DNA of 64,000 nt. Origin: the human T2T-CHM13v2.0 reference genome, Homo sapiens. Below the pieces are notes generated by a model that was given only the letters and a program-made list of their open reading frames with translations, had not been told where the DNA came from and made no database searches. Both the position numbers and the translations under genes were made by a program. Below are positions 3,366-20,640 of this stretch, piece after piece. The stretch lies in assembly GCF_009914755.1 (NCBI RefSeq), contig NC_060929.1, one strand, 5' to 3'. The stretch's first letter is position 1, and each line of letters opens with the position of its first letter.

Positions 3366-3845
3366 TATTTATTTCCTCAGGCCACCATAAAAAGTACCAC
3401 AAACTACACGGCCTACAACTACAGAAGGATATTCTATCATAGTTCTGGAGGCTAGAAATTCAAAATCAAGGTGTCAGCAGGGTAGTTCCTCTGGAAATTC
3501 GAGTTAGAATCTGTTCCATGCTTCTCTCCTAGCTTCTGGTGGCTGCCTACAGCTCTTAGTGTTACCCGGCTTGGAGCCTCATGTGTGATTTCAATCTCTG
3601 CCTCTTTCTTCCTATGGCCTCTTCTCTGTGCCTCTGCGTCTCTGTGTCTCAAATCTTCTTCCCTCTCTCTTATAGAGACACCAGTCGTTAGATTGAGTGT
3701 CCACCCTAAATCCAAAATGATCTTATCTCAAAATCCTTAACTTAATTACACCTACAAAGACTATTTCCAAATAAGGTCGTATTCACAGAAACCAGGCTTA
3801 GGAATAGGACATATCTCTTTGAGAAACACAGTTCAACCTATGACA
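3366..3845 (-). mobile_element. MaLR solo LTR (MLT1B/C-like)
   Basis: AGTTCTGGAGGCTAGAAATTCAAAATCAAGGTGTCAGCAGGG ... CCAAATAAGGTCGTATTCACAG ... ACACAGTTCAACCTATGACA. Confidence 0.85.
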
Positions 3846-5680: not shown

Positions 5681-8600
5681 TAGAAGAATTGTAATTTGCA
5701 ACTTATGGTGCAACATATCCTTAGACTTCCTCTAAACGAAAGTATGTTTGTATTGGTTGGCAGGCATTTTCTGTGGAAAAAAAAAATAGGTCTTTCAGAA
5801 CGGAGACTTCTAGAGGCAGAAAAGACCTTGATTGTGAGCCTTTGCTCTATTCGGTAGCTATTGAATTGTGGATTTACTAGGTGCCGGGAACTGCGTAATT
5901 TTTGTAACACAAAAATTCTACCCATGAAGACCTCAATAGTACTCTGAAAGGACAATGCAGGTGTGGGGAATAGTAAGCATTCAGTTTTTCTTGCTTTCTT
6001 TTTCTTTTTCTTACATTTATAAACCTTTATTGGATTTAGATTCTTAAAAATAATACCTGCAGGTATTATTTTAATAACACAGAAGCTTATAAAACAATTA
6101 CAAAATAAACATAAAAGCCCTTTTTTCCCTCAATCTCACTCCTTTCTTATAGCGCTTCCTCTCTAAGCTGAGCTTCTCCCATTTTTTGTGCAAGACTGTA
6201 ACAATTGTTGAAAGATCTCTAAATCGCTTTGGAAATAAATTTTGTGATATATACTTACCATTGTATGAATTTGAGATTAGCTATCTTCTTCCATGTTGTA
6301 GAAGACGAAGAACATGTCTTTTGGGAAACTTCTATGTAAGAGCCCATTTAGGTTTTTGCAGACTTGAAAGATCAGGCAGGATCAATTGATCTGTTTGCAA
6401 TGCAATACCTCAAGCTGACCAAGGATAAAATCTCATAGAAGAAAAGCAAATTAAATCAATTTTCATCTGTTCCTTAGCTAAATATTGCTAATAGCAGGCT
6501 TTTCATACTTCTTCAACTCCCTTAGCTGCTTTTGAGATTTTTCCATTCCAGGACAGAAGAAAAATGAAACAGAACCTATAATCATAACTCAAAATGAAGC
6601 CCAGTCCCCTTTCCCACATGAGAAAAATAAAACAGGGGAAGGAGGGAGAAACAACAAATATGCAACATGTTGGGATAACTAGATGATATTATAATCAGTT
6701 TTTTAAGAATTTATCAAGATATCATCAAAGCAATATATTTCCTCTCCTCTTATGTGAATATTAATAGATATTTAATATGGTGTAAACATTGTATAGTTAT
6801 GTAGTTTTCCAGACAGCAACAATAGTTAGAATTGCAAAATTTGCTTGCACAGGCAACTTGTATGATGAGGTAAGACAACTTGTATGATGTCTAAATATAT
6901 TACTTTACTGATTGGGTAGCGTGTTCTTCAACTGATGGAGAGAATATTAGTTTTATAACCTGATAGCAACTTAGGTCAAAAAATTGAGAGTTTTTAAACC
7001 ACTGAAATGGTCTCTGACTTTATCAATATCCCTTTAACCTTTGCTGGGAAAGCTATACGATTCCTCACAATCTAGAGAGTTTCCATTAGAGTCAGCCTTT
7101 GCCTTGAGACTTCTCCTGGAAAGTATCTGACTTTCTCTCCTATTAATTCTAAATGAACTTTGCTGATGAGAGAGATTATAAAGATGACCACTATTTGTCA
7201 TGGTAATCAAAAATTTCATCTCGGTCCGCAAATTCCTGAATCAAATATCAGCTGTTTACAATAGCCATCCACTGGTCAAGTAATTACTATACTAATTCTA
7301 GTTACTTTATGTGTCAAACTCCAAATACAAAATATATATTCAGCCTTAGTATTCTTTTTAAGTAAACAAAGATCAAACTCTAGTGTGTGGAACTCCTTGG
7401 AGATGAAATCTGCAATTTTTAAAAACATCAAAAAATAAGATAGATTGATGGATGGCCAGAGGGATGATGTGTGTGTGTTTACATATATATATATGAAAAT
7501 ATAGCAAAACCTTAATTGCAGAATCTAGGTTGTGGATAAACGGGTTTTCATTGTACAATTCTTTTGGCTTTTCAGTAAACAATTAGCAGAGATAGGCTAG
7601 TTATTTCTATTGAAACATCCTTGCTATTTACTCTGAAATCTAGGAACTTTTCAAGACATAAGAACTACAGTTATGAGGTAAGAGCCCTGACCTCTAAAAG
7701 CTGCCTCTTTTGTGAATATAAAGATTTACATTGAAAAACGATAAAAAATATAATTTATAAAACTTGAGAAAATAAAATTAACTTTAATTACTTCTTTATT
7801 AATTGCACAGCAGAAGTAAAACAATTAACTTTTCATCAAATTGCTTCTTTTTAATTTTTTTTTCTTCCAACTTCTATTTTACGTTCAAGGGGCCCATGTG
7901 CAGGTTTGCTGCATGGGTAAATTGTATGTCACTGGTTTTGGCTCACAAATTATTGCATCGCCCAGGTATTAAACATAGTACTCAATATATAGGCTTTTTT
8001 CTTATCCTCACCCTCTTCCACCCTCCACCCTCAAGTAGACTCTGGTGTCTATTGTTCCCTTCTTTGTGTCCATGTGTTCTCCATGTTTAGCTCCCACTTG
8101 TAAATGACAACCTGTGACATTTGGTTTTCTGATCTTGTGTTAATTTGCTTAAGAAAATGGCATCCACCTCCATCCATGCTGCTGCAAAGGACATGGTTTT
8201 GTTCTTTTTAATGGCTGCATAGTATTCCATGGTGTATATGTGCCATATTTTCTTTATCAGATCCGCTATTGGTGGGCTTCTAGGTTGATTCCGTGTCTTT
8301 GCTATTGTGAGAAGTGCCATGATGAACATACACATGCATGTGTCTTTCTGGTAGAATGATTTCTGTTCCTTTGGGTATATACCCCGTAATGAGATTGCTG
8401 GGCCAGATGGTAGTTGTTTTTAGTTCTTTGAGAAATCTCCAAATGGCTTTCCACAATGAACTAATGAACTAGTTTACATTCTAGCCAATTTGTAAGCATT
8501 CTCTTTTCTCAGAAACCCTGCCAGCCTCTGTTATTTTTTTAATAGCCATTCTTACTGGTATGAGATGGTATCTCATTGTGATTTTGATTTGCATTTCTCT

Positions 8601-10851
8601 AATGATTAGCGATGTTGAGCACTTTTTCGTATGCTTATTGGCTGAATGTATGTCTTTAAGAAGTATTTGTTCACATCCTTTGCTCATTTTTTAATGGGGT
8701 GGCTTGCTTTTTGTTTGTTCATTTGTATAAATTCCTTACAGATTCTGGATATTAGACCTTTGATGCACTGCTTGTGAATATTTTCTCCCATTCTGTAGGG
8801 TGTCTGTTTATACTGTTGATAGTTTCTTTTGATGTGCAGAAGCTCTTGGGTTTAATTAGGTCTCACTTATAAATTTTTGTTTTTGTTGCAATTGCTTTTG
8901 GAGTGTTCATCAGGAAATCTTTGCCAGGGCCTATTTCTAGAATGGAATCTCTTAGGTTTTCTTCTGGAGTTTTTTATAGTTTTAGATTTTACATTTAAGT
9001 CTTTAACCCATCTTGAGTTGATTTTTGTAAATGGTAAAAGGAAGGGCTCCAGTTTTAATCTTCTGCATATTGCTAATCAGTTATCACAGCACAATATATT
9101 AAAGAAAGACACATTTCCCCATTGCTTGTTATTTTCAACTTTGTCACAGATCAGATGGTTATAGGAGTGCAGCTTTATGTCTGGGTTCCATAACCTGTTC
9201 CTTCGGTCTATGTGTCTGGTTTTGTACCAGTACTAAACTGTTTCAGTTCCTGTAGCCTTGTAGTATACTTTGAAGTCAAGTAGTGTAATGCCTCCAGCTT
9301 TGTTCTTTTTGCTTAGGAATTCTTTAGTTATTCAGGCTCTTTATTGGTTCCATATGAAATGTGGAATAGTTTTTTCTAATTCTGTGATGAATGTCATGGG
9401 TAGTTTGATAGAAATAGCATTGAATCTGTAAATCGCTTTGGGCAGTATGGCCATTTTAAAAACTTTCTTTCTTCCTGTCCATGAACATGGAATGTTTTTC
9501 CATTTGTTTGTGTAGTCTCTGATTCTTTCAACAGTGTTTTGTGATTTCCATTGTAGATATCTTTCACCTCCCTGGTTAGCTGTATTCCTGGGTGTTTTAT
9601 CTTATTTTATTTTGTTTTATTTTTTGTGGCTATTGAGAATGGGATTGTATTCTTGATTTGCCTCTCAGCTTAGACGTTGTTGGTGTATAAAAACGTTACT
9701 GATTTTTGTACAGTGATTTTGTATCCTGAAACTTTGCCTAAGATAGTTATCAGATCTAAGAGCACTGGGGCAGGGACTATAGGACTTCCTAGGTATAGGA
9801 TCATATTATCTGCAAACAGCGATAGTTTGACTTCCTCTTGTCCTGTCTTCCCATTTGAGTACCTGGTATTTTATTTCTCTTTCCTGCATGATTTTTCTGG
9901 CTAGGACTTCCAGAACTATGTTGGATAGGAGGGTTGAGAGTGGGCATCCTTATCTTTTTCTTGTTCTCAAAGGGGAGTTCTTTCAGCTTTTGTCCATTCA
10001 GTATAATGCTGGCTGTGGGTTTGTCATAGCTAGCTCTTATTATTTGGAGATATGTTCCTTTGATACCCAGTTTGCTGAGGATTTTCAACATGAAGGGATG
10101 TTGAAGTTTATTGAAAGCCTTTTTTGCATCTGTTTATATGATCATGTAATTTTTATTCTTAGTTCTGTTTACATAATGAATCACATTTATTGATTTGCAT
10201 ATGTTGAACGAACCTTGCATCCCAGAAATAAAGCCTACGTGACCATGATGGATTAGCATTTTGATGTGCTGCCGGATTTGGTTTGCTAGTATTTTCTTGA
10301 GGATTTTTGCATCTATGTTAATCAGGTATATTGGCCTAGAGTTTTTTTGTTTGTTGTGTTTCTGCCAAGTTATGGTATTAGAATGATGCTGGCTTCATAG
10401 AATAAATTAGGAAGGAATCCTCCCTCTTCAATTTTTTGGAATAGTTTCAGAAGGATTGGTACCAGTTCTTTATATATCTGGTAGAATTCAGCTGTGAATC
10501 TGTCTGGTCCAGGGCTTTTTCTGTTTGCTAAGCTTTTTATTACTGATTAAATTTCAGAACTCATTAATTTTAGAACCAAGGTTTCTATTTCTTCTTGATT
10601 CAATCTTGAGAGGGTGTACATTTCCAGGGATTTTTCCATTTCTCCTAGGTTTTCCAGTTTGCAAGCACAGAGGTGTCTGTAATAGTCTCACAAGGTTGCT
10701 TTTATTTTAATTTCTTTGGGGTCAGTGGTAATATTCTCCGTGTCATTTCTCATTGTGTTTATTTGGATCTTCTCTCTTTTTTATTAGTCTAGTAGTGGTC
10801 TATGAATCCTTTCAAAAATCTAACCTTTTGTTTCACTGCTCTTTTGTATGG

Positions 10852-11165
<314 letters not shown>

Positions 11166-11958
11166 TGACATCTCTATTTCATTCTCTTCAGCTCTGATTT
11201 TGGTTATTTGTTGTCTTCTGCTAGCTTTGGGCTGCTTTGCTCTTGTTTTTCTAGCTCCTCTAGGTGTGATGCTACTTTGAGATCTTTCTAACTTTTTGAT
11301 GTGGACCTTTAGCACTATAATCTTTCCTTTTATTAATAACATTGCTTTAGCTGTGTCCCAGACGTTGTTATTTTATATCTTTCATTAGCCTCAAAGAGTT
11401 TCTTGATTTCTTCCTTAATTTCATCGTTTACCCAAAGCCATTCAGGTCTAGATAGTTTAATATCCATGTAATTGTATGGTTGGTTTTCAGAGATCTTCTT
11501 GGTATTGATTTCTATTTTTATTGTGCTGTTACCTGAGACTGTGGTTGATATAATTTTGGTGTTTTTTTTTTTCAAATTGTTGAGAATTGCCTTATGGCCA
11601 ACCATGTGGTTGATTTTAAAGTATGTGTCATATGCACATGAGAAGAATGTACATTCTGATGTTGTTGGGTGGAGTGTCCCATACATGTCTGTCAGGTCCA
11701 TTTGGTCAAGTGTCAAGTTAAGGTCCCAAATATCTTCGTTAGTTTTCTGCTTGGATAAGCTATCTAATAATATCAGTGGGGTGTTGAAACCTGTCACTAT
11801 TATTGTGTGGTTATCTAAATCTCTTTATATGTCTATAAGAGCTTGTTTTATGAATCTGGGTGCTCCAGTATTGGATGCAAATATGTTTAGAATAGTTAAG
11901 TCTTCTTGTTGAATTGAACATCATGATGTAATTCCCTTGTCCTTTTCATTGTTGTTTA

Positions 11959-12441
11959 TAGAAAAAAAAAGGTGCAGCTGGCTGCCAGCGCTTATTTAAT
12001 TTTATGTAAACATGCTCTTTGAGGCTGAAGCAAATCTGACTGATTTTCAATGTGAAAATAAAACATAAAACTGGTATTGGAGTTATTTTTAAACAGAACT
12101 AACATCAGAATCGTCTTTTTCAAAAAAAATCAGATTCATCCAATGAATCTTGGGCCAACCACTGTTCAAGAACAATATTTATATCACACGTAGAAATGCT
12201 ACATTTTCTAAGATTTGACATTTTCAGTGATCAAGAATTACTATATTTTATAAATAGGAAATATCACTGCTAAAAACAGAATGCTATAAATAGAATGATG
12301 TCTTTTGTTTCCAAAGTTGATATACTAGAGTGATGTGAAATAATAATACAAGTAAGTTATTTCATGGCAAAAGTGTCTCAGAGTAAACACTGTAGCCGCA
12401 AGTGCCACCAGCATGTGTTCTCGGGGCAAACAGGAAAAGGG
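11959..12441 (-). mobile_element. MER75 piggyBac non-autonomous element nested in L1
   Basis: Ends ...CTCGGGGCAAACAGGAAAAGGG|TTAA (piggyBac terminus plus TTAA target, 12442-12445). Internal GAGGCTGAAGCAAATCTGACTGATTTTCAATGTG and CAGAACTAACATCAGAATCGTC match recalled MER75. L1 resumes at TTAAAGTCTGTTTT. Confidence 0.9.
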
Positions 12442-13510
12442 TTAAAGTCTGTTTTTTCTGAAATAAGAATAGCAACCCCTGCTTTATTTTTTGTTTTCTT
12501 TCTTTTTTAATAGGTCTTTCTCCATCACTTTATTTTGAGCCTGTTGGTGTCACTGCACATGAGATAGGTCTCATAAAGACACCATACATTTTGGTCTTGC
12601 TTCTTTATCCAACTTGCAACACTATGCCTTCTAAAGTGGGGCATTTAGCCCACGTACATTCAAGATTAATATTTATATGTGTGAATCTGATCCTGTCATT
12701 GTGTTGTTAGCTGGTTGCTATGTAGATTTAATTGTATAGTTGCCTTATAGTGTCAATGGTCTATGATCTTAAGTGTGTTTTTGTGGTGACTGGTACTGGT
12801 CTTTTGTTCCGATGTTTAGTACATCCTTAAGGACCATGTATAAGGTAGATCTTGTGGTAAAAAAAATTCCCTTAGCATTTGCTTGTCTGAAAAAAAATTT
12901 TATTTCTCCTTTGTTTATGAAGCTTAGTTTGGCTAGATATGAAATTCTTGATTGGAATTTCTTTTTTTTTTTTTTTTTTTTGGTGCAGAATACAGGTCCT
13001 CAGTGTCTCCTGGCTTGTAGTGTTTGTGCTGAAATGTCTGCTATTTGCATGATGGGGTTCCCTTTGTAGGTTACCTGCTCCTTCTCTCTAGCTGCCTTTA
13101 ATATTTTTTGTGTGTGTTGACCGTGGAGAATCTGATAACTATGTGCTTTCAGGATCATTGCCTTGTATTATATCTCACAGGGATTCTCTGAGTTTCCTGA
13201 ATTTGCATGTTGACTTATCTAGCAAAGTTGGGGACATTTTTGTGAAGAATACCCTCAAATATGTTTTCCAAGTTGCTTGCCCTCTCTCTCTCTCTCCCTT
13301 TCCTTCAGGGATGCCAGTGAATCCAATGAGTTACAGGTTTGGCCTCTTTACATAATCTCATATTGTTCAGAGATTTCATTCATTTTTTAAAGTATTTTTT
13401 CTTTTTTTTTTCTGACTGAGTTAATTCAAAGAACTTGTCTCTTAGAGCTCTGATATTCTTTCCTCAGCTTGGTCTATTCTGTTGTCAATACTTCAGGTTA
13501 TATTATAAGG

Positions 13511-13817
13511 TTCTTTTTTTTTTACTTGAGACAGGGTTTTGCCCTGTCACCCAGGCTGGAGTACCATGGTGCCATCACGGCTCACTGCAACCTTGACCTT
13601 CCAGGCTCAAGTGATCTTCCCACCTCAGCCTCCTAAGTAGCTGGGACTACAGGTGCATGCCACCATGCTCAGCTAATTTTTGTACATTTTATACAGATTC
13701 ATTTTCACCATGTTTTCCAGGCTGGTTTTGAACTCCTGGGCTCAAATGATCTTCCCATCCTCCCACCTCAGCTTCCCAAAGTACTAGGATTAGAGCTGTG
13801 AGCCACTGCACCTGACA
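13511..13817 (-). mobile_element. AluJ nested in L1
   Basis: GAGACAGGG..., GGCTCAAGTGATCTTCCCACCTCAGCC and CTCCTGGGCTCAA are AluJ diagnostics; highly diverged. Confidence 0.9.
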
Positions 13818-15478
13818 TGAAATTTTGTAGTGAGCTTTTCGGCTCTACCAGATCAGTTTAGTTGTTTCTGAAAATTGCTATTTCATCTTTCAGGTCATGA
13901 ATCATTTTACTGGATTGCAAAGGTTCCTCAGATTGGGTTTCGGTGTTCTCCTAAATCTTGATGATCTTCACTGCCATCCTGATTCTTAATTCTATGTCCC
14001 TCATTTCAGCCATTTTATCAGTAAAGGACAATTTTTGGAGATGTAGTATGGTATTTTGGAGGTAAAAAAGACACTCTCTCTGACTTTTACAGTTGCAGTT
14101 CTTGCACAGATTCTTTCTCATCTCTGTGGGCTGATATTTCTTTAATCTTTAAGTTGCTGTTCTTTGGAAGGAGCTTTTTGCTTTTAAATTATCTGATGCC
14201 CTTGAGGATTTGACCATGATATAAGTTGGGTTTGGTTGACTGGCTTCATTTCTGGATGATCTCAGGTGGCTAAGACTCAGTTCATCACTCCTAGGCTGTG
14301 TGCTCTTACCCTGGGGTCTGGGAACAGGTCCATGGCTTTGTTCTCTTGTCCCTTGATGTCAAGCATCTGCTGCACTGTAGGGGCCAAGGTATTCCCAGAC
14401 CACTGGCAACAACACTCTGAAGCAGGGTTCCAGCAAAAGCTTTTTGTGGAGGTAATGGTAGTGTGTTTCATGCTCACATGTGCACACCAGGGAAAGTGGA
14501 GCAATAGTACAGCTAAGTCCATGCCTACATGTCAGCAATGGCTGGGAGCAGGGTACATGTGTATGCATGCAATGGTTGAGGAGGGGGCAATGGTGAGGTC
14601 CATGCATGTACACACACTGGCAAAGTGATGGGGTAAGGCTCTGAGCGAATGTGCACTGGTTGGGGTGGAGCCATGGTGAGGTCCATGCATGTACACACAC
14701 TGACAAAGCAGTGGTGTGAGGCTATGCACAAGTGAGCACTGGCACAGTGGTTGGGGGAAGCTGTAGGTGAGTGAGTGCTGGCAGGAACCCATCTGCAAAA
14801 ACTCTCTGACAGTTAGCTGGGGTCTGTCAGTGAAAGAGCTATAACCACGGCCACTGGGATGCTCCCTGTTTTGATATCCAAGGCTGTACTGCAAGCAGAT
14901 GCAGCCAGACAGGGACCCTGGGAGAAGCTGGCAGACAAGGGACACTCAGATCAGATTGTCACCATTCCATGGGCAAGATAGCCCTGTTCTGTCCAGGTTA
15001 GAGAATGAACGAAAGCCAAAGTCACCTATAGGAGTATGGTGAGCCTTGGGCATCCCTGCTTGTGCTCCTTTGCAGCCAATACCATGTGAAACCCTCTGAG
15101 CTCCACACAAGCTGGAGTCCTGTCTCTGGCAACACACTAAGCAGCACTCTCTGCCAGCTCAAATGTCCATGGGGTTGTAGGGTCTCCTGCAGCTAGGATT
15201 CCAGAGGTTTGTGATAAGAGTGAACCAGTTCATGCCTATTTAACTTGCCCCTTCACTAGAAGCTGTTTGGGGCCAGAAATGAGTCCTGGTGCTTGGTAAC
15301 CCCATGCAGGGTTCCCAGCTTCCTCCTCCTTCAGCCCAAGGTCTGTGTCCTCTCTCTGTCCATTCTCGACAACTTCCTTCCGAAGATCTGCTCATAGTGT
15401 GCCGGTCTTCTTGATGGTCTGGTCTCTCAGTGAGAGAAGCTCTTCCTGGATGCATCTAGTCAACCACCTTCGCACCAC

Positions 15479-15918
15479 AATGATCGCCATTCCAACTGGT
15501 GTGAGATGGTATCTCATTGTGGTTTTGATTTGCATTTCTCTGATGGCCAGTGATGATGAGCATTTTTTCATGTGTCCTTTGGCTGCATAAATGTCGTCGT
15601 TTGAGAAGTGTTTGTTCATGTCCTTCGCCCACTTGTTGATGGGTTTGTTTGTTTTTTTCTTGTAAATTTGTTTGAGTTATTTGTAAATTCTGGATATTAG
15701 CCCTTTGTCAGATGAGTAGATTGTAAAAATTTTCTCCCATTCTGTAGGATGCCTGTTCACTCTGATGGTAGTTTCTTTTGCTGTGCAGAAGCTCTTTAGT
15801 TTAATTAGATCCCATTTTGTCAGTTTTGGCTTTTGTGGCCATTGCTTTTGGTGTTTTAGACATGAAGTCCTTGCCCATTACACTGTTGGTGGGACTGTAA
15901 ACTAGTTCAACCATTGTG
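15479..15918 (-). repeat. 440-bp inverted duplication of 17681-18120 (young L1 sequence including its inversion junction)
   Basis: Reverse complement of 17681-18120 with about 5 substitutions by eye; contains the junction CCTTGCCCAT|TACACTGTTGG. Confidence 0.95.
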
Positions 15919-16283
15919 CAAGCTCTTTCAGGTCATTAGACAAATGCAATTTCTTGACATGGTAGAGCCAAGGTCCCCGTTTCCTTGCTGGCTGTCATTC
16001 AGGAATGAGTATTTGCTTCTGTAAACTCCATGCAATCCTTCTCATGCCTACCATATGGCCTCCCTCCAGCAACAACAGAATGGGAGTCCCTCTCACACTT
16101 TGAATCCCTTCCCCTTCTGCCATATTTCTCTGCCTTCCTCTTCTGCCTCTAGCTGGAAGTAGTTCTCTACTTTTAAGGACTCCTGTGACACAATGGGCCC
16201 ACCTCCGTAATCCAGGATAATCTCTCTATTTTAAGGCCATAACATATTTGCATTTGAAAGGAGGAGGCATTCTGCCTACTACA
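15919..16283 (-). mobile_element. partial MaLR LTR (MLT1E/F-like), truncated at the left
   Basis: GTCCCCGTTTCCTTGCTGGCTGTC, GGGCCCACCTCCGTAATCCAGGATAATCTC, terminus ATTCTGCCTACTACA. Confidence 0.75.
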
Positions 16284-16424
16284 GAGGTATTAATGACTTT
16301 CCTCATCCTGTATGGACTTCACTTAGGTAAAATACTTTGATCTAATAAATTAAACCTACTATTGATGTAGTGCATGGAAGTAAAAAAAAAAATTATAAAA
16401 TCTCTCTGCAGCAAAACTTGTCTG

Positions 16425-16545
16425 AGTTTGGTGATGGCTGCACAACTTTTGGAAACACTAAAAGCCAATTAGTTTGTATACTTTTAATGTCTGAATTTTG
16501 TGGTATATAAATTATAACTCAAGAAATGTGTTATTTAAAGCAAAA
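16425..16545 (+). mobile_element. old L1M 3' end fragment
   Basis: GGTGATGGCTGCACAAC...TGAATTTTGTGGTATATAAATTATAACTCAA. Confidence 0.6.
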
Positions 16546-16699
16546 ACAATAAACTTGCCTTGCAACACTCTTCTGCCTTGCAAGATAAGTCTATTCACAT
16601 GGAAGACTCCAGAAGAACAGTTATATAAAGAAAATGTTAAAGTTTAGGCTTACTTGCAAAAATAGCATCTCCATTATACCTACATGAGGTGATGAGGTA

Positions 16700-16932
16700 A
16701 TAATTGCCAGTAATTAAAAGGCAGTCATTATACACTAGAACCAGCTTTAAGCATGGTATGCATGTTAACATATTTAATCTAATCAACAAGCCTGTGAAAT
16801 GGATAACATTAACATGCTCATTTTGCAAAGGAAACTGAATCACAGACCGTTTAAGTCAAACCTGCCAATGAATGCTGAGAGTTAGGATTCAAAACTCGGC
16901 ACTGTGGCTCCTGAGTTTATGCTCTTAACCAC
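16700..16932 (-). mobile_element. MIR
   Basis: CATTTTGCAAAGGAAACTGAATCACAGA core; GGATTCAAAACTCGG...GCTCTTAACCAC. Confidence 0.75.
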
Positions 16933-17070
16933 CGTTAGGAAGCAAGAAGGTCTTTGATGAGGGCACTCGGTGACAATGTGACATTTAAATAGACCAATGT
17001 TTTAAAGCTAGACCTACTTCTTATTAATTATCATTAGGAAGACTGGTTATTTAATCTGAGACTCAGTTTT

Positions 17071-18186
17071 TTTTATTTTTTTATATATTTGTAAGTTTTC
17101 ATTTATTTATTTTGTATTATACTTTAAGTTTTAGGGTACATGTACACAATGTGCAGGCTTGTTACATATGTATACATGTGCCATGTTGGTGTGCTGCACA
17201 CATTAACTCATCATTTACATTAGGTATATCTCCTAATGCTATCCCTCCCCCCTCCCCCCACCCCACAACAGGCCCTGGTGTGTGATGTTCCCCCTCCTGT
17301 GTCCATGTGTTCTCATTGTTCAATTCCCACCTATGAGTGAGAACATGTGGTGTTTGGTATTTTGTCCTTGTGATAGCTTGCTGAGAATGATGGTTTCCAG
17401 CTTCATCCATGTCTCCACAAAGGACATGAACTCATCATTTTTTATGGCTGCATAGCATTCCATGTCATATATGTGCCACATTTTCTTAATCCAGTCTATC
17501 ATTGTTGGACATTTGGGTTGGTTCCAAGTCCTTGCTATTGTGAATAGTGCCTCAATAAACATACGTGTGCATGTGTCTTTACAGCAGCATGATTTATTTG
17601 GGTATATACTCAGTAATGGGATGGCTGGGTCAAATGGTATTTCTAGTTCTAGATCCCTGAGGAATCGCCACACTGACTTCCACAATGGTTGAACTAGTTT
17701 ACAGTCCCACCAACAGTGTAATGGGCAAGGACTTCATGTCTAAAACACCAAAAGTAATGGCAACAAAAGCCAAAATTGACAAAATGGGATCTAATTAAAC
17801 TAAAGAGCTTCTGCACAGCAAAAGAAACTACCATCAGAGTGAACAGGCATCCTACAGAATGGGAGAAAATTTTTACAATCTACTCATCTGACAAAGGGCT
17901 AATATCCAGAATTTACAAATAACTCAAACAAATTTACAAGAAAAAAACAAACAACCCCATCAACAAGTGGGCGAAGGATATGAACAAACACTTCTCAAAC
18001 GACGACATTTATGCAGCCAAAGGACACATGAAAAAATGCTCATCATCACTGGCCATCAGAGAAATGCAAATCAAAACCACAATGAGATACCATCTCACAC
18101 CAGTTGGAATGGCGATCATTAAAAAGTCAGGAAACAACAGGTGCTGGAGAGAATGTGGAGAAATAGGAACACTTTTACACTGTTGG
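17071..18186 (-). mobile_element. young L1PA (PA3-5-like), 5'-truncated with 5' inversion (twin priming), inserted in a MIR
   Basis: Antisense 3' segment 17071-17720 and sense segment 17721-18186. TSD TGAGACTCAGTTTT at 17057-17070 and 18187-18200. TTACACTGTTGGTG is present at the break in both segments. Confidence 0.95.
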
Positions 18187-18218
18187 TGAGACTCAGTTTT
18201 ATTATCTGCAAAAAGGGG

Positions 18219-18686
18219 TGTATCAGTTTTCTAAGGTTTCCATAACAGAGTATTACAAATTTAAAGAGAAATTCATCTGGCTTAAACAGCAGAATTTTAT
18301 TGTCTCACAGTTCTGGAGGCCAGAAGTCCAAGATCAAGATATCCAAAGTTTGGTTACTTTAGAACTAAAACCATGAGACAAAAGTTGACTCCATGCTTTT
18401 CTCCTGGCTTCTGATGACTTGCTGGGAATCTTTGGCATTCCTCGGCATGTAGATCCCTGTCTTCGTCTTCACATGGCTTTCTCCCTGTGTGGATGATTCT
18501 GTCTCTAAATTTTCCCATTTTATGAGGACACCATTCACATCACATCGGATTAGGGATGTCTAATGACCTCATCTTAACCAATAATATCTACAATGATCCT
18601 ATTTCAAAATAAGGTCAAATTCTGAGGTACTAGGGATTAGGATCTCAGCATGTGAATTTTCAAGGGACACGATTTAACCCATAACA
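18219..18686 (-). mobile_element. MaLR solo LTR (MLT1C-like) inserted in the same MIR
   Basis: TGTATCAGTTTTCTAAGG ... TCTCACAGTTCTGGAGGCCAGAAGTCCAAGATCAAG ... GATTTAACCCATAACA. Confidence 0.88.
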
Positions 18687-19696: not shown

Positions 19697-20640
19697 TTTT
19701 CTTTCTTTTTTTAATTATACTTTAAGTTCTGGGATATGTGTGCAGAACATGCAGGTTTGTTACATAGGTATATGCCTGCCATGGTGGTTTGCTGAACCTA
19801 TCAACCTGTCATCTACACTAGGTATTCCTCCTAATGCTATCCCTTTCCTAGCCCCCACGCCGCAACAGGCCCCAGTGTGTGATGTCCATGTGTCCTCCTT
19901 GTTCAACTCCCACTTATGAATGAGAACATGCAGTGTTTGGTGTTCTGTTCTTGTGTTAGTTTGCTGAGAATAATGGTTTCCAGCTTCATCCATGTTCCCA
20001 CAAAGGACATGAACTCATCCTTTTTTATTGCTGAATAATATTCCATGGTGTATATGTGCCACATTTTCTTTATCCAGTCTATCATTGATGGGCATTTGGG
20101 TTGGTTACAAGAATGAACAGGCAACCTACAGAGGGGAGAAAATTTTTGCAATCTATCCATCTGACAAAGGGCTAATATCCAGAATGTATAAAGAACTTTA
20201 ACAAATTTACAAGAATAAAACAAACAACCTCATCAAAAAGTAGGTGAAGGATATGAACAGACACTTTTCAAACGAAGACATTTATGCAGCCAACATACAT
20301 ATGAAAAAAAAGCTCATCATCACTAGTCATTAGAGAAATGCAAATCAAAACCACAATAAGATACAATCTCATGTCACTTAGAATGGCGAACACTAAAAAG
20401 TTAGGAAACAACAGATGCTGGAGAGGATGTGGAGAAATAGGAATGCTCTTACACTGTTGGTGGGAGTGTAAATTAGTTCAGCCATTGTGGAAGACAGTGT
20501 GGCGATTCCTTTCCTCAAGGCTCTAGAACCAGAAATACCATTTGACCCAGCAATCCCATTACTCGGTATATACCCAAAGGATTATGAATCATTCTACTAC
20601 AAAGACACATGCACATGTATGTTTATTGCAGCACTGTTCT
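19697..20640 (-). mobile_element. L1PA (PA6-8-like), 5'-truncated with 5' inversion
   Basis: Antisense 3' end 19697-~20110, then a sense ORF2 segment ~20111-20640 ending GCAGCACTGTTC, just upstream (in L1 coordinates) of where the antisense part stops. TSD unclear. Confidence 0.9.

What the first reader, a model, noticed from the sequence alone, without database searches (positions are those of the whole stretch)
15474..18120. 440-bp inverted templated copy of a neighbouring L1's private inversion junction
Seen: 15479-15918 is the reverse complement of 17681-18120 with about 5 substitutions. It includes the twin-priming junction (GCCCAT|TACACTG), which is unique to that insertion, and shares non-consensus bases (GACGACATTT, GACAAAATGGG, GGCATCCTAC). 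It has no poly-A or TSD, so it is not an independent retrotransposition. It sits where the old L1's 5' TSD and the left part of an MLT1 LTR should be. Inference: a deletion repaired by copying DNA from 1.76 kb away on the opposite strand (FoSTeS/MMBIR or SDSA-like). The ~1% divergence suggests a recent event, possibly restricted to great apes.
Basis: partly seen in the sequence, partly recalled or inferred. Interest (0 to 1): 0.75.

Follow-up and report, generated by a model that had tools for sequence, protein, structure and literature searches.

The report
Neighbour-copied L1 patch at a deletion
A 440-base piece of an old jumping-gene relic sits flipped 1.8 kb from a near-identical neighbour, at a spot where humans and chimpanzees lack about 1.7 kb of DNA; it was published as an insertion made from RNA, but it was likely copied from the neighbouring DNA during break repair, and a second published case likely arose the same way.

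Summary
Confirmed. 15479-15918 is the reverse complement of 17681-18120 (440 bp, 5 substitutions). It carries the neighbour's inversion junction, found twice in the whole genome (both here), and 11 bases private to the pair; the 26 other L1 copies compared differ at 17-19 of 400 sites, the neighbour at 5. The locus is already in print: size, structure and an exact two-number AT fingerprint identify it as NCLI38 of Sen et al. 2007, shared by human and chimpanzee, absent from rhesus, replacing 1,692 bp. That paper read it as endonuclease-independent capture of free L1 mRNA with twin priming and argued against neighbouring-DNA templates. The sequence contradicts this: the twin-priming scar was inherited from the neighbour. 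It fits the known inverted-duplication-with-deletion class (under 1 kb, within 5 kb of its source), most likely made by fold-back of the broken end. Of three other NCLI loci I looked for, one (probably NCLI51) is also an inverted copy of DNA 2.15 kb away, one (probably NCLI23) has no template in 20 kb, one was not found. Known class, likely neutral; the value is the correction of published in vivo evidence.

The parts
7846..15478 (-). Old, apparently full-length L1; its 5' end abuts the event and its 5' target-site duplication is missing
   Evidence: Sequence; 19 relatives end a few bases after the aligned point; no convincing duplicate of the 3' flank in 15460-17060
15463..15478 (+). 16 bases counted as non-L1 filler in NCLI38; partly resembles the old L1's own terminus, partly 17967-17977
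   Evidence: Boundaries from the exact AT fingerprint and Table 1 of PMC1920257; 11-of-12 match to the source segment, shuffle p 0.03, 11 of 545 other windows do as well: suggestive only
15479..15918 (+). The inverted copy (400 bp of antisense L1 joined to 40 bp of sense L1 at 15878/15879); no poly-A, no target-site duplication
15919..16283 (+). Right part of an LTR relic (MLT1-type, name recalled) cut by the event; about 190-200 bp of its left part are gone
   Evidence: Relatives from the genome and their pairwise left extent; missing part not found next to the locus
15919..17680 (.). 1,762-bp spacer between the arms, the loop in the fold-back model and the part an inversion between the arms would flip
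   Evidence: Coordinates; role inferred
17057..18200 (-). Younger 5'-truncated, 5'-inverted (twin-primed) L1 with poly-A and a 14-bp target-site duplication; about 3.3% from the majority of relatives
17681..18120 (+). Source segment inside the younger L1, spanning its inversion junction at 17721

Best explanation
The 440-bp piece is an inverted duplicate of the L1 relic 1.76 kb away and was likely copied from that neighbouring DNA, not from an L1 transcript, in a single repair event that likely also removed the 1.7 kb missing here. Shown: the copy descends from this one neighbour (junction, private bases) and the neighbour is the original (poly-A, target-site duplication, extends past both ends of the copy). 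From print: 1,692 bp deleted, human plus chimpanzee, not rhesus. Inferred steps: a break or stalled fork in the lost 1.7 kb; the right-hand 3' end at 15919 folded back on its own strand 1,762 bases away at 17681, primed with at most 3 of 4 paired bases, copied 440 bases to 18120, let go, perhaps re-primed briefly (16-base filler) and was joined to the left end at the old L1's 5' terminus. Read on the minus strand the switch order is 3-2-1-4, which allows an intra-strand switch. I put about 0.55 on fold-back and 0.3 on a switch to the other strand or sister chromatid; both are DNA-templated.
For: Junction in 2 places genome-wide, both here. 11 shared private sites; no single one of 26 other copies carries more than 2 of the 10 substitutions among them. 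Copy to neighbour 5 of 400 differences, to the others 17-19. Those 11 sites are most simply decay gathered at this locus before copying: the copy was made in the last 19% (6-42%) of the neighbour's life. Same locus as NCLI38: AT 53.50 and 61.77 match Table 1 exactly. Size and distance fit the inverted duplications of Sudmant 2015 (under 1 kb, within 5 kb, not typically retrotransposition) and Schloissnig 2025 (median 284 bp). Switch-order rule from Walker 2021. A second probable NCLI locus has the same anatomy with 5-bp microhomology at the fold-back side.
Against: Microhomology here is poor: 3 of 4 bases with a terminal mismatch on the right, none testable on the left because the ancestral bases are deleted. 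Yeast fold-back insertions are mostly 5-34 bp (abstract of PMC11724301), far shorter than this. Sequence alone cannot tell a DNA template from a nascent RNA of the same locus. I had no ape or monkey sequence; deletion size and lineage come from the paper, and that deletion and copy were one event is inferred from their shared borders. The 26 comparison copies were the best BLAST hits among 40 scored of 5,758 candidates, not all L1s.
Confidence: 0.85

Rival explanations
1. Published reading (Sen et al. 2007, NCLI38): a free L1 mRNA was captured at a double-strand break without endonuclease, and twin priming during that capture made the inversion.
For: No poly-A, no target-site duplication, a target deletion and filler: all four NCLI criteria hold.
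Against: An independent reaction would have to repeat the neighbour's junction to the base (2 matches genome-wide), repeat 11 private bases and land 1.76 kb from it. The paper's text never mentions the neighbour for this locus.
Confidence: 0.02
2. A transcript running through the neighbouring L1 relic was reverse-transcribed (by L1 ORF2p or a repair polymerase) into a break close to its own locus.
For: It would carry the junction and private bases too. Break patches from RNA of distant loci are described (PMC5110952, first quarter read).
Against: No transcript is annotated over the source (nearest ends 39 kb away, hub table). The experimental patches in that review came from distant places, not nearby. 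Landing within 2 kb of the source needs tethering that DNA gives for free. Same anatomy is common for non-repeat DNA.
Confidence: 0.06
3. Two steps: first an inversion of spacer plus source with the 440 bp duplicated at the breakpoints, later a flip back of the 1.76-kb spacer by recombination between the arms.
For: Both arrangements have the same two junction sequences, so the present allele cannot exclude it; the arms are 98.9% alike.
Against: Needs an extra event. No coordinate containing 53459 or 53461 in the T2T inversion table of PMC10150506 (22 chr5 hits in that file, 2 rows seen).
Confidence: 0.05
4. An older independent L1 fragment was later overwritten by gene conversion from the neighbour.
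For: Inverted repeats can convert each other; this would also make the arms look younger.
Against: Rhesus has 1,692 bp of other sequence at the site; identity to the neighbour runs to both ends of the copy and across the junction.
Confidence: 0.02

Closest known systems
NCLI38, non-classical L1 insertion (Sen et al. 2007, PMC1920257; passages and parts 2-5 of 7 read: methods end, results, discussion)
   Same: The same locus: chr5, 441 + 16 bp, truncation/inversion structure, AT 53.5 and 61.77 reproduced exactly at 15463-15919.
   Different: The paper infers capture of free L1 mRNA and fresh twin priming, and argues that SDSA from neighbouring DNA is not preferred; here the template is the adjacent decayed L1.
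Inverted duplications and 'Ins with Dup and Del' of the 1000 Genomes Project (Sudmant 2015, PMC4617611, passages; Schloissnig 2025, PMC12350158, passages)
   Same: Under 1 kb, inverted, within 5 kb of the source, at a deletion, no retrotransposition marks.
   Different: Those are polymorphic in people; this one is shared with chimpanzee, and its template happens to be L1, so it passes for an L1 insertion. Microhomology is weaker than the usual 1-15 bp.
Four-point short-range template switches in great apes (Walker 2021, PMC7954356, passages)
   Same: Order 1-4-3-2 / 3-2-1-4, which yields one inverted repeat.
   Different: Their search covers tens to hundreds of bases and at most 50 deleted bases; this event is 440 bp, 1.76 kb away, with 1,692 bp deleted.
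Class 2 templated sequence insertion polymorphisms (Onozawa and Aplan 2016, PMC5110952, first quarter read)
   Same: A patch at a break, no poly-A or target-site duplication.
   Different: Defined by a distant template; here the template is local and inverted.
Fold-back templated inversions at yeast breaks (Yu 2024, PMC11724301, abstract and outline only)
   Same: A broken end primes on its own strand, then is end-joined.
   Different: Mostly 5-34 bp and next to the break; this is over ten times longer.

Membership tests
Inverted duplication with deletion | Second copy in opposite orientation, under 1 kb, within 5 kb of the source | tested here: met
   440 bp, 1,762 bp apart
Inverted duplication with deletion | Copy descends from that source and not from another repeat copy | tested here: met
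   Junction 2 matches genome-wide; 5 versus 17-19 differences
Inverted duplication with deletion | Sequence lost at the insertion site | tested here: met
   About 190-200 bp of LTR and the old L1's duplication are missing; 1,692 bp from print, not re-measured
Inverted duplication with deletion | Microhomology of 1-15 bp at the junctions | tested here: inconclusive
   3 of 4 bases with terminal mismatch on the right; left side needs the ancestral allele
NCLI (endonuclease-independent L1 insertion) | 3' truncation, no poly-A, no target-site duplication | tested here: met
NCLI (endonuclease-independent L1 insertion) | Template is a free L1 mRNA, independent of nearby genomic copies | tested here: not met
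   Shares junction and 11 private bases with the neighbour
NCLI (endonuclease-independent L1 insertion) | Reverse transcriptase made the insert | not testable with these tools
   No intron or tail that would mark an RNA step
Classical twin-primed L1 insertion (the source L1) | Poly-A, target-site duplication, inverted 5' part | tested here: met
   17057-18200; not met by the copy
Class 2 TSIP | Template from a distant region | tested here: not met
   Template 1.76 kb away
Class 2 TSIP | Polymorphic in people | not testable with these tools
   One human assembly held; paper reports it shared with chimpanzee
Inversion between inverted repeats | Spacer found in both orientations among haplotypes | tested here: inconclusive
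   No matching coordinate in one T2T inversion table; no matching id in a cut supplement

The most novel reading that the evidence does not exclude
A large share of the published genomic examples of endonuclease-independent L1 insertion, above all those with deletions of hundreds to thousands of bases, are not retrotransposition at all but inverted fold-back copies of an L1 lying about 2 kb away; tail-less young-looking L1 fragments across primate genomes are then a fossil record of germline fold-back repair with kilobase loops.
Probability: 0.35. Interest if true: 0.7.

Novelty: new member of a known kind. Interest (0 to 1): 0.5.

Why it matters
The event itself is ordinary in kind and lies away from genes, so no function is claimed. 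It matters because Sen et al. 2007 presents itself as the first whole-genome set of endonuclease-independent L1 insertions in a normal genome, and this locus is one of its only two internally rearranged examples. Here the rearrangement was inherited from a neighbour, so the locus is no evidence for RNA capture or for twin priming without endonuclease. A second locus probably fails the same way. The question of how many tail-less L1 fragments came from RNA and how many from nearby DNA is directly testable on complete ape genomes with a self-alignment and a count of private bases. The private junction also fixes which arm is the source, which most inverted duplications do not allow.

Tried and rejected
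Assembly artefact: rejected, arms differ at 5 sites and the locus was PCR-checked in print. Common junction: rejected. Old L1 inserted into the LTR, leaving its left part on the far side: not supported; of 8 natural LTR copies used as queries, best hits fell on other LTRs (18218-18428, 3366-3515), and two weak hits left of the old L1 (6945-7134 score 44, 7626-7708 score 38) are at background level. A 14-base near match between 7818 and 16543 as a displaced target-site duplication: judged chance in AT-rich DNA, no control run. Error-prone copying: 4 changes in the copy against 1 in the source, p = 0.375. Filler as a second templated piece: p 0.008 only for a 12-base cut chosen after looking; 0.03 for the 16 bases of the paper. 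Anchoring the old coordinates with a gene from print: PELO located in this assembly but the two papers listed were not opened; the AT fingerprint served instead. Prior re-analysis: 'NCLI38' occurs only in the original paper among the 30 of 54 listed hits; two searches showed no re-analysis in their listings; most subscription papers are not searched. The inversion table of Porubsky 2022 was not held; one search used an id format that table does not have. NCLI11: a 20-kb stretch at the estimated place held no 1,223-bp candidate, so untested. Six further loci that I had planned were not examined.

Full report
Observation. The window holds one long, near-perfect inverted pair: 15479-15918 against 17681-18120, 440 bp without gaps and with 5 substitutions, 1,762 bp apart. 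The right arm lies inside a 5'-truncated, 5'-inverted L1 (17057-18200) that has a poly-A tract and a 14-bp target-site duplication. The left arm has neither and stops short of both ends of that L1, so the right arm is the source. The left arm includes the L1's inversion junction: a 30-base stretch across it matches the 3.1-Gb genome twice at up to 3 mismatches, both times here, and in 8 intact copies checked the joined parts are about 450 bp apart on opposite strands.

Descent. I compared both arms with 26 other L1 copies (the best hits, 40 scored of 5,758 candidates). Eleven sites are shared by both arms against the majority of these copies, 4 are peculiar to the copy and 1 to the source. Over the 400-bp part the copy differs from its neighbour at 5 sites and from the others at 17-19; no other copy has more than 2 of the 10 shared substitutions. 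The neighbour had therefore most likely sat and decayed at this locus for most of its life before it was copied: the post-copy share is 0.19 (95% range 0.06-0.42), and the arms differ by 1.14% (0.37-2.65). That is about the human-chimpanzee distance (recalled, about 1.2%); conversion between the arms could hide a greater age.

What was lost. The left flank is the 5' end of an old minus-strand L1; 19 relatives end within a few bases of this point, and no convincing target-site duplicate follows. The right flank starts inside an LTR relic (MLT1-type, name recalled) whose relatives run about 190-200 bp further left; that part was not found beside the locus.

It is in print. Table 1 of Sen et al. 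2007 (PMC1920257; passages and parts 2-5 of 7 read) lists NCLI38 on chr5: 441 bp of L1 plus 16 bp of other sequence, 1,692 bp deleted, shared by human and chimpanzee, absent from rhesus, AT 53.5% and 61.77% in the flanks. Taking 15463-15919, the 100-bp flanks give 53.50 and the 10-kb flanks 61.77 (the 10-kb value ranges 60.2-65.1 over other positions of the 72 kb; two starts 3-4 bases away give 61.76). It is the same locus. The paper says all loci were checked by PCR and resequencing, which removes the artefact worry, and supplies the outgroup test that I could not run. [quoted passage not shown] For this locus that reading does not hold: the twin-priming scar is the neighbour's.

Mechanism. 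With A the left flank, Z the lost 1,692 bp, Y the spacer and X the source, the ancestor was A-Z-Y-X and the present allele is A-X'-Y-X (ancestral order of Y and X fixed by the L1's target-site duplication). Read on the minus strand, synthesis or a resected end passes X and Y, turns back 1,762 bases to the start of X, copies 440 bases and rejoins beyond Z: order 3-2-1-4, in which the template is already on the same strand, the condition for an intra-strand switch in Walker 2021 (passages). A switch to the opposite strand or the sister chromatid gives the same product. Junction evidence does not choose: 3 of 4 bases pair at the turn, with a terminal mismatch; the filler has an 11-of-12 match inside X that is only suggestive (p 0.03 for the paper's 16 bases). 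I favour fold-back (about 0.55) over an inter-strand switch (about 0.3); a nascent RNA of the neighbour cannot be excluded (0.06). All these steps are inferred.

Known kind. Sudmant 2015 found that 54% of 229 characterised inversions were inverted duplications, nearly all under 1 kb and within 5 kb of the other copy, not typically retrotransposition, and that a duplicated insert at a deletion was the commonest complex class (passages). Schloissnig 2025 counts 277 of 733, median 284 bp, mostly with 1-15 bp microhomology (passages). This locus fits that class as an old member shared with chimpanzee.

Do other NCLI loci behave alike? I looked for 3 of the other 20, at places estimated from recalled assembly offsets, 20 kb each. 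(a) chr11: a 475-bp, 98.9% inverted pair 2.15 kb apart inside one L1. A 464-bp cut from the exact left junction gives the paper's 58.0 for the 100-bp flanks (as do 4 other of 30 starts tried), but 65.66 rather than 63.31 for the 10-kb flanks; leaving out a 1.1-kb, 98% AT array gives 63.52. The paper says NCLI51 lies in an existing L1, as this does. So probably NCLI51. The neighbour is the best of 39 other scored matches (1,002 candidates), with 5 differences against 7-11 for the next 20; the shared sites are weak (carried by 1, 5, 9 and 9 of 20 relatives), so the case is thinner than on chr5. The left junction has 5 bases of microhomology (the flank plus those bases occurs 4,696 times in the genome). 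(b) chr2: a tail-less L1 of about 2,246 bp with the paper's 65.0 at a cut that ends at the L1 end (probably NCLI23) has no template in the 20 kb apart from a 177-bp, 95.5% direct match, and its best matches are scattered at 97%: against generalising. (c) chr19: NCLI11 not located. So, with this locus, 2 of 3 located loci look like local inverted copies; both carry deletions over 600 bp, the third 17 bp. The sample is small, and I chose loci whose place I could estimate, with long inserts.

Print status of the re-reading. 'NCLI38' appears only in the original paper among the listed hits (30 of 54 listed); searches list no re-analysis. Subscription journals are mostly outside the library, so a prior remark cannot be excluded. 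No inversion of the spacer was found in the T2T table of PMC10150506 by coordinate search or in a cut supplement of PMC12350158; both are weak negatives.

Verdict. Real, correctly read by the first stage, a new member of a known class, at a locus already published under a mechanism that the sequence contradicts. No gene is touched (hub table). Interest 0.5, carried by the correction and by the cheap genome-wide test that it suggests.

Noticed in passing
L071:868-1342 and L070:8243-8717 (G000:C11:34828868-34829342 and 34826243-34826717): 475-bp, 98.9% inverted copy 2.15 kb from its source inside one L1, with 5-bp microhomology; probably NCLI51 of Sen 2007 (human-specific, 615 bp deleted).
   Followed up: partly
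L095:9803-10000 continuing into L096:1-2048 (G000:C2:29555803-29558048): Tail-less L1 of about 2,246 bp, probably NCLI23; no local template in 20 kb; a separate L1 3' end 3.5 kb upstream overlaps its last 177 bp at 95.5%.
   Followed up: partly
window 15479-18120: The two arms could in principle flip the 1,762-bp spacer by recombination; no such call found in two partial look-ups.
   Followed up: partly
window 15467-15482 and 15912-15925: The left junction resembles the reverse complement of the right junction, and the 8 bases 15475-15482 equal 17680-17687 at the far end of the source; significance not tested.
   Followed up: no
window 19698-20640: A third, older 5'-inverted L1 2.6 kb right of the source, with a different junction.
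   Followed up: no
window 18213-18626: An apparently whole LTR relic starts 13 bases after the source L1's target-site duplication.
   Followed up: no
window 11960-12440: About 480 bp inside the old L1 that do not align to other L1s; looks like a piggyBac-type non-autonomous element (recalled).
   Followed up: no
window 14584-14742: Tandem duplication of an 83-bp unit (82% alike) in the old L1's 5' region.
   Followed up: no
L070:5501-6644: 1.1-kb tandem array of 98% AT next to the chr11 L1; may be much shorter in older assemblies, which would explain the AT mismatch.
   Followed up: partly
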